The position numbers and the translations under genes were made by a program. Below, in pieces: positions 49,766-51,532 of a stretch of DNA of 64,000 bases. The DNA comes from Candidatus Methanomethylophilaceae archaeon (lineage in GTDB: Archaea; Thermoplasmatota; Thermoplasmata; Methanomassiliicoccales; Methanomethylophilaceae), in the NCBI GenBank assembly GCA_944320495.1, contig CALUHR010000013.1, positions 160,001 to 224,000 of the forward strand, written 5' to 3'. Numbering within the stretch: position 1 is the stretch's first letter; each line of letters opens with the position of its first letter. Below the pieces are notes generated by a model. It was not told where the DNA came from and ran no database searches. It worked only from the letters and a program-made list of their open reading frames with translations.

Positions 49766-50521
49766 ATGAGCACGGATGAGAAGCTGGTGAAGGTCCGCAA
49801 GACGTCGGACTACGAGTACGGATCGTCCAAGTACATCTACACGCCTCTCAGCAGGCTTTTCACCCGCATCCTGCTGAAGACGCCAGCCACCCCCAACCAG
49901 ATCACGATCTTCTGGGGGCTCCTGATGATCCTGTGCTCGATCGCGTTCGCCTTCGGCGATCTCCTGCTCGGGGTCCTCGGAGGCATCGGCTGGGTCATCT
50001 CCTACGCCCTCGACTACACCGACGGGGACATAGCCCGCTACAAGGACATGAAGTCCAAGCGCGGCCCGTTCCAGGACCTCGTGAACCACAGGGCGACCTA
50101 CCCCCTGCTCATGTTCTGCATCGGATTCGGGGCCTACAAGATTGGAAGGACCGAGTTCTTCGGCATCGCCTTCGACCCCATGTGGTACATCGTACTCGGA
50201 TTCCTGGCCGGCATAGCCATGGTCATCATCATGGACCTCGGCGACGCCTACAACAAGGTGTATCCCGAGGGAAGCATCGACAGCGACCGCGGAAGCGCCG
50301 CCGTGGAGGGGGGTAACGTGGGGAACCGCAGGCTGTTCAAGGCCGTCATGAACTTCAACCCCCTCGTGTTCACGAACATGATGCTCCTGACGCCCGTCTT
50401 CGCCCTGATCGGTCTCACGGACGTGTTCATCATCTTCTACGGTATCTTCTATCCCCTGGCCGCGTTCGGGAGGTACGTCATACTGTATCGCAGACTGCCC
50501 GGCGTATCGAAATCGCAGTGA
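49766..50521 (+). CDS. CDP-alcohol phosphotransferase family protein
   Basis: TPNQIT, DYTDGDIARYK...GPFQD. Confidence 0.85.
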   Translation: MSTDEKLVKVRKTSDYEYGSSKYIYTPLSRLFTRILLKTPATPNQITIFWGLLMILCSIAFAFGDLLLGVLGGIGWVISYALDYTDGDIARYKDMKSKRGPFQDLVNHRATYPLLMFCIGFGAYKIGRTEFFGIAFDPMWYIVLGFLAGIAMVIIMDLGDAYNKVYPEGSIDSDRGSAAVEGGNVGNRRLFKAVMNFNPLVFTNMMLLTPVFALIGLTDVFIIFYGIFYPLAAFGRYVILYRRLPGVSKSQ

Positions 50522-51532
50522 TCGGAGGACGATGCATTCCCCGTACACGGCGCGGGCGGAGCCCACGTACCCGTAGATGCGGAGGTTGTCTCCCGAGAAG
50601 TCGAACACGCCACTGGGGGCATCGTAGGTGTGCCCCTGCTGATAGTCGACTATCGTCGATGTGTAGTCTAGACCGGATGCTATCGTCTGGGCCACGAAAT
50701 GGACCGTGTGGGACTGGTACTCGACGGTCATGCCGAAGTTCATGACCATGCCGTCGTAGGCGCGGTAGATGAGCGCGCAGGCATACCCATCGCTGGACTC
50801 GTTCCCGACAGAGAAGTACTCGCCTATGCCCTCGTACCTTATACCGTAGGAGTACTCATTGAACTGTATGCCCAGGGAATCCTGGACGAGGTCGTTCTGG
50901 ATGTAATCCGTACGGAGGGTGTGTCTGACGTCGTTGAAGCTGGAGTCGTCCATCCCCTCGATGCCCGTGAACAGCTCGGCATACCCCTGGATCTGCTCGA
51001 TGTCATCATCGTCTGGACCGTGGGACACGTACTTGCCCAGGCATCCGGACATGTTCATCACGGTGCCGCCGGACCTCAGCCATTCGACGAGCACGCACGA
51101 GGACGTGCCGTCGTACAGCACGTCCGAGACCGCCCCTGCGGCGATCAGGACGGCGACCGAGGAACGATCGGCATCCGGAAGGGCTTCCGCCAGTTCCTGC
51201 GAGTCGCAGAACACCATTCCCGGCCCCGAACGTATCTCGAGCTGCTCCCCCAGGCCGATGAGCATCGTCTCCTGGAGCTCCCAGTCGTTCATCGCCGCAT
51301 ATTCCGTGTCGAAATACACCAGGATCGTATCGAAATCATATCCCGCGCTGCTCTCGATGAGCGTCGTGTGGGTCTCCATGCCGTAGTTCGACGAGTACGT
51401 GTAATGGATCCCGTCCTCATCTCCCCAGGCGTCCAGGTCGCATCTGTATATGTTCGGACCGTAGGACAGGACCATGCCGACGAGCATGACGGCGACGACT
51501 GCTACAATCACTATGACATCGATGCGCTTCAT
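50522..51532 (-). CDS. Exported/membrane-anchored hypothetical protein (336 aa), paralogue of 56447-57469
   Basis: N-terminal hydrophobic anchor, acidic body, LVEWLRSGGT; CGA at 50522-50524 abuts the convergent TGA; standard code adds 259 aa. Confidence 0.72.

What the first reader, a model, noticed from the sequence alone, without database searches (positions are those of the whole stretch)
50500..50540. TGA|TCG zero-gap abutment and matched paralogue lengths
Seen: the CDP-alcohol phosphotransferase ends with TGA at 50519-50521 and the convergent exported protein reaches CGA at 50524-50522, directly adjacent; two more in-frame CGAs follow within four codons. With CGA as stop, this protein is 336 aa and its paralogue at 56447-57469 is 340 aa. 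Under the standard code they would be 595 and 788 aa and would cover whole neighbouring genes.
Basis: seen in the sequence. Interest (0 to 1): 0.78.

Follow-up and report, generated by a model that had tools for sequence, protein, structure and literature searches.

The report
CGA used as a stop codon
In this gut methanogen the arginine codon CGA ends about a quarter of all genes, including the two paralogues flagged here, which would be a sense-to-stop change of the genetic code in a free-living cell and means that standard annotation of these genomes is wrong.

Summary
TGA (50519-50521, + strand) abuts CGA (50524-50522, - strand). The two paralogues align up to exactly their CGA codons. 38 homologous loci in relatives end within 0-10 codons of that point at a standard stop. 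An AlphaFold model of the 336-aa form is complete (pLDDT 90).

The pattern is genome-wide. Of 1,399 confident genes, 341 end at CGA, and the sequence after CGA looks as non-coding as the sequence after TGA. In-frame CGA is almost absent inside genes. In same-genus relatives (UBA71, Ca. Methanoprimaticola) a standard stop sits within one codon of the G000 CGA in 104 of 125 comparisons.

Supporting features:
- Out-of-frame CGA is abundant, and residues at those sites are conserved. This argues against frame-blind RNA editing.
- CGA stops prefer T and avoid A at the next base, and they carry more back-up stops.
- tRNA-Arg(UCG) is kept, but its anticodon arm is aberrant in all 11 genus members examined.
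- The single aRF1 gene keeps one conserved in-frame CGA.
- Zero-gap convergent stops recur: 23 of 156 convergent pairs, all involving CGA.

Other agents of this scan reported the same code on other windows of this genome. I found no published description of it.

The parts
49766..50521 (+). CDP-alcohol phosphatidyltransferase gene (251 aa) ending at TGA 50519-50521
   Evidence: Pfam PF01066 at 25.2 bits against a cut-off of 22. The exact protein is on public record, on a contig of 551,930 bases.
50522..51532 (-). Gene for a 336-aa membrane-anchored (exported) protein of unknown family. Its terminator is CGA at 50524-50522, with zero gap to the convergent TGA.
   Evidence: AlphaFold2 pLDDT 90.4, with an N-terminal helix at residues 3-24 and a last strand at 330-335. 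No Pfam family.
50507..50515 (-). Two further in-frame CGA codons (50515-50513 and 50509-50507) behind the terminator. They are the complements of two TCG Ser codons of the + gene.
   Evidence: Genome-wide, extra in-frame stops within 6 codons follow 45% of CGA terminators against 27% of TGA terminators.
51519..52772 (-). 417-aa multi-pass membrane protein, paralogue of the GT87-like gene. It also ends at CGA (51521-51519) and overlaps the start of the 336-aa gene by 14 nt.
   Evidence: Under table 11 the frame runs on to 51417.
56447..57469 (-). 340-aa paralogue of the exported protein. Its terminator is CGA at 56449-56447, which overlaps the GTG start (56454) of the next gene by 8 nt.
   Evidence: The next standard stop lies 447 codons further on.
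55072..56454 (-). 460-aa GT87-like (GT-C) membrane glycosyltransferase ending at TAA. It is covered in another frame by the table-11 read-through of the 340-aa gene.
   Evidence: Pfam GT87, E = 2.8e-9.. The exact protein is on public record.
33669..34718 (-). GmhA-like (SIS) ORF, an in-frame CGA at 34145-34143, then a GmhB-like (HAD phosphatase) ORF that itself ends at CGA. This is a conserved in-frame CGA at a domain junction.
   Evidence: The same CGA at offset 0, followed by about 160 coding codons, is found in G078, G031, G100, G052 and G042. Other genera have a fused gene without CGA there.

Best explanation
The two paralogous genes end at CGA because this organism uses CGA as a translation termination codon alongside TGA and rare TAA and TAG. 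The organism belongs to genus UBA71 (Candidatus Methanoprimaticola), family Methanomethylophilaceae.

Shown by sequence analysis:
- CGA is essentially absent from sense positions.
- CGA sits where orthologues have TGA or TAA.
- The coding signal stops at CGA.
- The effect is specific to the reading frame.

Inferred mechanism: the single aRF1 recognises CGA as it does UGA, in competition with a retained but weakened tRNA-Arg(UCG). Termination is therefore context-dependent. It is favoured by U and disfavoured by A at the next base, and it is slightly leaky, hence the extra back-up stops. The residual Arg reading is kept because a few genes need it. aRF1 itself carries one conserved in-frame CGA, which would make its synthesis fall when aRF1 is abundant (autoregulation). 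A GmhA/GmhB junction could yield two products.

The zero-gap TGA|TCG abutment is one case of a recurrent layout in which the complement of one gene's stop (TCR) supplies the favoured T at the next base for the convergent gene's stop.

Under the standard code the frames run on for hundreds of codons only because frames that read antisense to, or out of phase with, genes rich in G+C at third codon positions rarely contain TAA, TAG or TGA.
For: Local evidence:
- The paralogue alignment ends at the CGA-coded residues.
- Family members in 38 loci from relatives end 0-10 codons after the same motif at standard stops, and typical lengths are 332-342 aa.
- The AF2 model of the 336-aa form is complete, with pLDDT 90.4 and a last strand at 330-335.

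Genome-wide evidence:
- Of 1,399 confident ORFs, 978 end at TGA, 341 at CGA, 48 at TAA and 32 at TAG. Downstream GC3 is 0.573 after CGA and 0.571 after TGA. Only 2% of CGA terminators are followed by coding-like sequence.
- The distance from CGA to the next standard stop looks random, with a median of 27 codons.
- Against 13 same-genus genomes, a standard stop lies at offset 0 from the G000 CGA in 72 of 125 comparisons and within one codon in 104 of 125. The control for G000 TGA gives 358 and 432 of 492.
- In-frame CGA in aligned coding sequence of the genus is 0-5 per about 30,000 codons.

Not an artefact: independent public assemblies show the same read-through R. A 99%-identical genome, G132, shares the CGA positions.

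Frame-specific:
- Out-of-frame CGA is abundant, at 7,649 and 30,436 occurrences per 427,881 codons.
- At NCG|A sites the genomic residue is conserved in 76.3% of cases against 73.2% in controls. Matches to the residue editing would produce are 2.1% against 2.2%.

Context and leakiness:
- The base after CGA is T in 54% and A in 9% of cases, against 28% and 22% after TGA (chi-square p = 4e-17).
- An extra in-frame stop lies within 6 codons in 45% against 27% (p = 8e-8).

Translation machinery:
- There is one aRF1 gene. It has a single in-frame CGA at the conserved Arg78 in 18 of 19 genus members.
- tRNA-Arg(UCG) is present with intact acceptor and T stems, but the 31-39 pair is broken in 7 of 7 genus members and paired in 8 of 8 other genera.
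- G016 shows the same C31/A39 mismatch. The other three members (G085, G090, G105) have C33 in place of U33.

Precedent: yeast eRF1 measurably reads CGA as a stop in competition with tRNA-Arg, and UGA-biased eRF1 mutants L123F, L123R and L123Y do so more strongly (PMC7379694). All aRF1 sequences of this order have R at the matching YxCxxxF position.
Against: - No protein-level or RNA-level data were available here, so termination at CGA is inferred from sequence statistics and homology only.
- The cognate tRNA-Arg(UCG) is retained, and a few in-frame CGAs sit at conserved Arg positions. CGA is therefore not a pure stop.
- I found no substitution in the known codon-reading motifs of aRF1 that is specific to the genus. 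The only diagnostic residue is A17D. NIKS and YxCxxxF are unchanged, and a G-to-S change in GRGTEL occurs only in G000 and G132.
- Use of CGA as a terminator varies widely within the genus: 0 of 68 in G070, about 9% in G078 and 4 of 11 in G126, against about 24-30% in G000. The strength of the signal outside G000 is therefore modest.
- Editing restricted to in-frame terminal CGA cannot be excluded from DNA alone.
Confidence: 0.82

Rival explanations
1. C-to-U editing of the mRNA turns terminal CGA into UGA, so the translation code itself is standard.
For: CGA and UGA differ by one C-to-U change. Orthologues mostly have TGA where G000 has CGA. Editing that creates UGA stops from CGA is known in plant organelles (my own knowledge).
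Against: - Out-of-frame CGA is abundant.
- The genomic residue at NCG|A sites is conserved as well as at control sites, with no excess of the residues editing would produce. Any editing would therefore have to be aware of the reading frame or the site.
- Conserved in-frame CGA at Arg positions (aRF1 Arg78 and the GmhA/GmhB junction) needs CGA to be read as Arg.
- The genus-specific changes in the anticodon arm of tRNA-Arg(UCG) point to a change at the decoding step.
Confidence: 0.06
2. CGA is effectively unassigned. Ribosomes stall there because the tRNA is too weak, and the peptide is released by a rescue pathway (aPelota/ABCE1-type) and not by aRF1 reading the codon.
For: The tRNA-Arg(UCG) anticodon arm is aberrant in every genus member examined. 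No genus-specific change was seen in the known codon-reading motifs of aRF1. A second weak eRF1-fold hit (36 bits) exists in the genome.
Against: - Using a rescue pathway for a quarter of all genes would be costly.
- The strong next-base preference and the conserved in-frame CGA specifically in the aRF1 gene fit competition between a release factor and a tRNA better.
- Yeast eRF1 is shown to read CGA (PMC7379694).
Confidence: 0.08
3. The standard code applies. The genes really carry long Arg-initiated C-terminal tails, or the long ORFs are the true genes.
For: Public gene callers produced such read-through proteins (P0033 at 510 aa, P0041 at 435 aa).
Against: - The tails have no similarity between paralogues or homologues.
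- The tails lose the coding signal.
- The tails cover whole neighbouring genes that have their own Pfam matches.
- Relatives stop at the same position with TGA.
- CGA is absent inside genes.
Confidence: 0.02
4. Assembly or sequencing artefact, or an altered sequence, with T miscalled as C at stops.
For: None specific.
Against: The same feature appears in independent ENA and Logan assemblies, in the 99%-identical genome G132 and in other species of the genus. Neighbouring proteins match public records exactly. The aRF1 and tRNA features co-vary with it.
Confidence: 0.02

Closest known systems
Sense-to-stop reassignments in organelle codes (AGA/AGG in vertebrate mitochondria, NCBI table 2; UCA in Scenedesmus mitochondria, table 22; UUA in thraustochytrid mitochondria, table 23; from my own knowledge)
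   Same: A codon that is sense in the standard code disappears from inside genes and is found at gene ends.
   Different: This is a cellular genome of 1.77 Mb with about 1,400+ genes. The codon is CGA. The cognate tRNA is retained in a weakened form, and a few conserved sense uses remain.
Possible CGA stop in two hydrothermal-vent archaeal MAGs (GCA_027068385.1 and GCA_964414255.1; Melnykov 2026 preprint, 10.64898/2026.04.02.715157)
   Same: CGA is absent from recognisable domains of an archaeon, and the author raises the possibility that it is a stop.
   Different: Those MAGs have about 50% GC, reassign CGG to Trp and lack tRNA-Arg(UCG). The stop reading was not tested there. Here CGG remains in use (3,830 codons in the ORF set), the tRNA is present, and termination at CGA is supported by orthologue comparison.
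Misreading of CGA by yeast eRF1/eRF3 (Wada and Ito 2018, PMC7379694)
   Same: [quoted passage not shown] UGA-biased factors do so more strongly.
   Different: In yeast it is a minor side reaction at a rare codon. Here it would be the normal end of about a quarter of the genes.
RF2 (prfB) autoregulation in bacteria through an in-frame UGA (my own knowledge)
   Same: The release-factor gene carries, at a conserved place, an in-frame copy of a codon that the factor itself terminates at. This gives a plausible negative feedback.
   Different: Bypass would be by a cognate tRNA reading CGA as Arg, not by a +1 frameshift. The feedback is inferred, not shown.
Short (4-bp) anticodon-stem tRNA and altered eRF1 in Blastocrithidia and Condylostoma (cited in PMC13092985, listed; details from my own knowledge)
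   Same: A change at the base of the anticodon stem accompanies a change in what a stop-like codon means.
   Different: There the short stem lets a near-cognate tRNA-Trp read UGA, a stop-to-sense change. Here the broken 31-39 pair or C33 is in the cognate tRNA of a codon that moves from sense to stop.

Membership tests
Sense-to-stop codon reassignment (alternative genetic code) | The codon is absent from conserved sense positions | tested here: met
   Only 5.1% of in-frame CGA in long ORFs have coding-like flanks, against 44-69% for other codons. There are 0-5 CGA per about 30,000 aligned codons in genus members. Only 5-7 candidate internal CGAs exist in the whole genome.
Sense-to-stop codon reassignment (alternative genetic code) | The codon lies where orthologues have standard stop codons | tested here: met
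   Offset 0 in 72 of 125 comparisons and within one codon in 104 of 125. For the flagged family, 38 loci end 0-10 codons from the same point.
Sense-to-stop codon reassignment (alternative genetic code) | The cognate tRNA is lost or disabled | tested here: inconclusive
   tRNA-Arg(UCG) is present with intact acceptor and T stems. Its anticodon arm is aberrant in all 11 genus members examined: a 31-39 mismatch in 8, and C33 with a 27-43 mismatch in 3.
Sense-to-stop codon reassignment (alternative genetic code) | The release factor acts on the codon, and protein C-termini are observed at it | not testable with these tools
   This needs release assays, proteomics or ribosome profiling.
Release-factor autoregulation through an in-frame stop (prfB-like) | A conserved in-frame copy of the factor's own target codon early in the factor's gene | tested here: met
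   CGA lies at codon 78 in 18 of 19 genus members, in the context GCT/TCT CGA CTN. It lies at codon 25 (TAT CGA GGA) in 9 of 10 sampled genomes of other genera of the family, and in G123, which is filed under this genus. In other families of the order it is scattered.
Release-factor autoregulation through an in-frame stop (prfB-like) | Synthesis of the factor responds to its own level | not testable with these tools
   This needs reporter or in vitro translation experiments.
Ambiguous stop/sense codes (Condylostoma and Blastocrithidia type) | The same codon is widely used as sense inside genes and as stop at gene ends | tested here: not met
   Internal CGA is nearly absent. Only aRF1, the GmhA/GmhB junction and a handful of candidates remain.
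C-to-U mRNA editing that creates stop codons | Genomic C is read as U, so residues at edited sites follow the edited codon | tested here: not met
   For frame-blind editing of CGA, NCG|A sites keep the genomic residue in 76.3% of cases against 73.2% in controls, and matches to the edited residue are 2.1% against 2.2%. Site-specific editing at gene ends was not testable.
CDP-alcohol phosphatidyltransferase (Pfam PF01066), for the + strand gene | Match above the curated cut-off | tested here: met
   25.2 bits against a cut-off of 22.

The most novel reading that the evidence does not exclude
CGA is a fourth, context-dependent stop codon in a free-living archaeal genus, and the change was prepared in the whole family Methanomethylophilaceae. 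Across that family CGA is about ten-fold depleted, and the aRF1 gene keeps exactly one in-frame CGA (codon 25, moved to codon 78 in UBA71). On this reading aRF1 already reads CGA partially throughout the family and senses its own level through that codon. The take-over was completed in UBA71 by detuning tRNA-Arg(UCG) in two independent ways.
Probability: 0.45. Interest if true: 0.92.

Novelty: new variant of a known kind. Interest (0 to 1): 0.86.

Why it matters
If confirmed, this would be a sense-to-stop change of the genetic code in a cellular, free-living organism. It would show a visible intermediate state: a retained but weakened tRNA, a leaky stop with its own context rule, and a release-factor gene that carries the codon. 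Theories of code evolution (codon capture against ambiguous intermediate) lack such an example.

There is also a practical consequence. Standard gene callers mis-annotate roughly a quarter of the genes of these gut methanogens. They produce fused, over-long or suppressed neighbouring genes, such as the 510-aa and 435-aa public read-through proteins seen here. Code-inference tools that work from conserved domains cannot detect a stop assignment.

Tried and rejected
- First genome-wide pass: it suggested that TAG was a sense codon, because 749 ORFs were 'ended' by TAG with coding-like sequence downstream. This was an artefact. Antisense shadow frames share the high GC3, and TAG is their main interrupter. 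Adding a GC1>GC2 filter removed it.
- In-silico altered genome or TAG/CGA swap: considered because a tRNA-Arg(UCG) exists and no tRNA(CUA) was found. Rejected because independent public assemblies and other species show the same feature.
- Exact look-up: neither the 336-aa nor the 595-aa form is on record, so that test was uninformative.
- Restriction avoidance of TGATCA as the reason that zero-gap pairs always carry CGA: rejected, since there are 614 TGATCA sites against 584 expected.
- Simple patterns for tRNA-Arg(UCG) in G085, G090 and G105: these failed because those tRNAs have C33. A covariance model found them.
- Fold search for the 336-aa protein: it gave only weak matches (TM 0.3-0.4) to accessory domains of GH42/GH164 glycosidases. 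No function is assigned beyond a probable cell-surface, glycan-related partner of the adjacent GT87-like membrane proteins.

Full report
**Observation.** The + strand reads ...aaa tcg cag TGA at 50519-50521, followed at once by tcg at 50522-50524. The convergent - strand frame therefore reads ...GTG CTC CGA TCA CTG CGA TTT CGA. The first CGA is at 50524-50522 with zero gap to the TGA. Two more in-frame CGAs lie 3 and 5 codons further on, and they are the complements of two TCG serine codons of the + gene.

The + gene (251 aa) is a CDP-alcohol phosphatidyltransferase (Pfam 25.2 bits, cut-off 22). Under table 11 the - strand ORF is 595 aa and covers that whole gene in antisense. Its paralogue is 788 aa from its ATG (873 aa from a TTG) and covers the downstream GT87-like gene in another frame. 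With CGA as stop they are 336 and 340 aa.

BLASTP of the two long translations aligns residues 19-337 with 107-426, which runs up to the CGA-coded R in both. Beyond that there is only noise. Public homologues are mostly 332-342 aa. The few longer ones (P0033 at 95% identity, P0034 at 92%, P0041 at 53%) continue with R at exactly that column into unrelated tails, so the feature exists in independent assemblies.

In 38 loci from relatives the family ends 0-10 codons after the conserved ...YG... motif at a standard stop, mostly TGA. Only the window's copy has CGA there. An AlphaFold2 model of the 336-aa form is confident and complete: pLDDT 90.4, pTM 0.86, an N-terminal membrane helix at 3-24 and a last strand at 330-335.

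**Genome-wide.** The window is C13:160001-224000 of a 1.77-Mb, 62% GC assembly. My first pass was misled by antisense shadow frames that share the high GC3. I removed them by also requiring GC1>GC2. After that, 1,399 confident ORFs end at TGA (978), CGA (341), TAA (48) or TAG (32).

Sequence after CGA is as non-coding as sequence after TGA (GC3 0.573 and 0.571). Only 2% of CGA terminators are followed by coding-like sequence. The next standard stop follows at random-looking distances, with a median of 27 codons. In this window 20 of 63 genes end at CGA. One of them is the 417-aa membrane protein upstream of the 336-aa gene, with CGA at 51521-51519.

**Orthologue test.** I fetched 20-140 kb from each of about 40 relatives and compared them with the G000 proteins.

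- For G000 genes that end at CGA, same-genus relatives have a standard stop at the same codon in 72 of 125 cases and within one codon in 104 of 125. The control for G000 TGA genes gives 358 and 432 of 492.
- In-frame CGA inside aligned genes of the genus is 0-5 per about 30,000 codons.
- Relatives also hold clear CGA terminators, with the next standard stop 56 to more than 280 codons away. Their frequency is lower and variable: 0 of 68 in G070, 8 of 85 in G078 and 4 of 11 in G126.
- G132 is 99% identical to G000 and shares its CGA positions.

**Taxonomy.** Genus UBA71 was named Candidatus Methanoprimaticola, family Methanomethylophilaceae (PMC8727293).

**Mechanism: what the sequence shows.**

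1. *The avoidance is frame-specific.* CGA out of frame is abundant. Residues at NCG|A sites are conserved like controls, with no excess of the residues editing would produce. This rules out frame-blind C-to-U editing and points to the ribosome.
2. *CGA terminators have their own context.* The next base is T in 54% and A in 9% of cases, against 28% and 22% after TGA. The bias persists after removing CGATG stop/start overlaps. No CGA stop precedes AAC, AAA, AAT or ACA, while 83 TGA stops do.
3. *Back-up stops are more frequent after CGA.* An extra in-frame stop lies within six codons after 45% of CGA stops and 27% of TGA stops (p = 8e-8, zero-gap cases excluded). This suggests leakiness.
4. *There is one aRF1 gene, and it holds one in-frame CGA at the conserved Arg78.* This holds in 18 of 19 genus members, always in the context GCT/TCT CGA CTN.
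5. *tRNA-Arg(UCG) is retained with covarying, intact stems, but its anticodon arm is aberrant in all 11 genus members examined.* The 31-39 pair is broken in eight (C.A, U.C or A.A). The other three have C33 in place of the near-universal U33, plus a 27-43 mismatch. Eight other genera have a normal arm.
6. *Very few internal CGAs remain.* Apart from aRF1, only a handful exist. The clearest is in this window at 34145-34143, between a GmhA-like and a GmhB-like ORF. It is conserved in five other species of the genus, and other genera have a fused gene without CGA there.

**Inferred model.** aRF1 reads CGA like UGA and competes with a deliberately weak tRNA-Arg(UCG). Context decides the outcome. 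The weak tRNA is kept because aRF1 and a few other genes need occasional Arg reading. In aRF1 this gives a plausible negative feedback.

There is a precedent. Yeast eRF1 measurably terminates at CGA in competition with tRNA-Arg, and UGA-biased L123F/R/Y mutants do so more strongly (PMC7379694). The aRF1 sequences of this order carry R at the matching YxCxxxF position. I found no genus-specific change in the NIKS or YxCxxxF motifs. The only diagnostic residue is A17D, so the release-factor side of the model is not demonstrated.

**Family level.** This may be an addition to what the scan reported before.

- CGA runs at 2-8 per 1,000 codons in other families of the order.
- It runs at 0-1 per 1,000 in most other genera of Methanomethylophilaceae, even AT-rich ones that favour AGA.
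- It runs at about 0.08 per 1,000 in UBA71.
- In those other genera aRF1 also keeps exactly one in-frame CGA, but at codon 25 (TAT CGA GGA). This holds in 9 of 10 sampled genomes of other genera, and in G123, which is filed under this genus. One genus has CGA at codons 25, 27 and 78. In other families CGA is scattered.

This suggests that CGA was already hazardous in the family ancestor. I saw no convincing CGA terminators outside UBA71, in about 200 C-termini.

**The abutment.** Among 156 convergent pairs, 23 have a gap of exactly 0: 12 CGATCG, 7 CGATCA, 4 TGATCG (the flagged pair is one of these) and no TGATCA. TGATCA is not avoided in the genome, and it is common at stops in relatives. My reading is inference. 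The complement of a stop (TCR) supplies the T that CGA stops prefer at the next base. CGA is therefore well tolerated there, and GC-biased mutation has converted these sites.

**Function of the flagged genes.** The region is a cell-surface glycan cluster. It holds an NAD epimerase, a CDP-alcohol transferase, an IspD-like cytidylyltransferase, two GT87-like membrane proteins and GtrA. Each exported paralogue sits beside a GT87-like gene. It has no Pfam family and only weak fold similarity to accessory domains of GH42/GH164 enzymes. Its role is not resolved.

**Literature and earlier findings.** I found no paper describing CGA as a stop in these archaea. A 2026 preprint raises the possibility for two unrelated vent MAGs without testing it. 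Other agents of this scan reported CGA as a stop, the aRF1 CGA and the odd tRNA on other windows of this genome. I re-derived these points independently. I qualify the 'whole genus' statement: the genus shares the loss of sense CGA and the machinery changes, but use of CGA as a terminator ranges from about 0 to about 30%.

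Noticed in passing
window 33669-34718 (- strand), CGA at 34145-34143: A GmhA-like (SIS) ORF and a GmhB-like (HAD phosphatase) ORF are joined in frame by a single CGA. The CGA is conserved in five other species of the genus. Other genera have a fused gene without CGA. It is a candidate for two products from one message through partial read-through.
   Followed up: partly
G000:C2:85942-87135 (L001), and aRF1 loci L121-L177: The in-frame CGA of aRF1 sits at codon 78 in genus UBA71 but at codon 25 in most other genera of the family. One genus has CGA at codons 25, 27 and 78. The preceding codon is a rare T-ending one (GCT, TCT or TAT) in most cases.
   Followed up: partly
L001 (aRF1 of G000) and L122 (G132): Only these two nearly identical genomes have GRSTEL where every other aligned aRF1 shown has GRGTEL, in the loop that corresponds to the eukaryotic GTS motif. 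G000 is also a heavy user of CGA stops.
   Followed up: no
genome-wide; in the window at 50519-50524: Convergent genes with exactly zero gap between their stops are a spike: 23 of 156 pairs. All carry at least one CGA, and none is TGATCA. Smaller spikes occur at overlaps of 11 and 14 nt.
   Followed up: partly
L235, L240, L241 (tRNA-Arg(UCG) of G090, G105, G085): These three species have C at tRNA position 33, where U is nearly universal. They lack the 31-39 mismatch seen in the rest of the genus. This is a second, independent way of altering the same anticodon arm.
   Followed up: partly
L005, L006, L007 (public records CAVGUW010000001.1, CALURX010000104.1, CAVJRF010000002.1): These contigs carry this archaeal gene family. 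For L005 and L007 they match genomes that the genome collection places in Methanomethylophilaceae (G047 and G057). Their record titles name Bacteroides salyersiae, Gastranaerophilales and Eggerthellaceae, so the public labels look wrong.
   Followed up: no
genome-wide; window 18871-19635, 27464-27829, 61868-62443: TAG ends only about 2% of confident genes, and several TAG 'ends' are followed by coding-like sequence. This would fit pyrrolysine use in this order. I did not look for the Pyl genes.
   Followed up: no
window 51519-51532 and 56447-56454: CGA stops take part in ordinary operon-style overlaps with the next start: 14 nt with an ATG and 8 nt with a GTG. Genome-wide, 39 CGA stops overlap a downstream start as CGATG.
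   Followed up: partly
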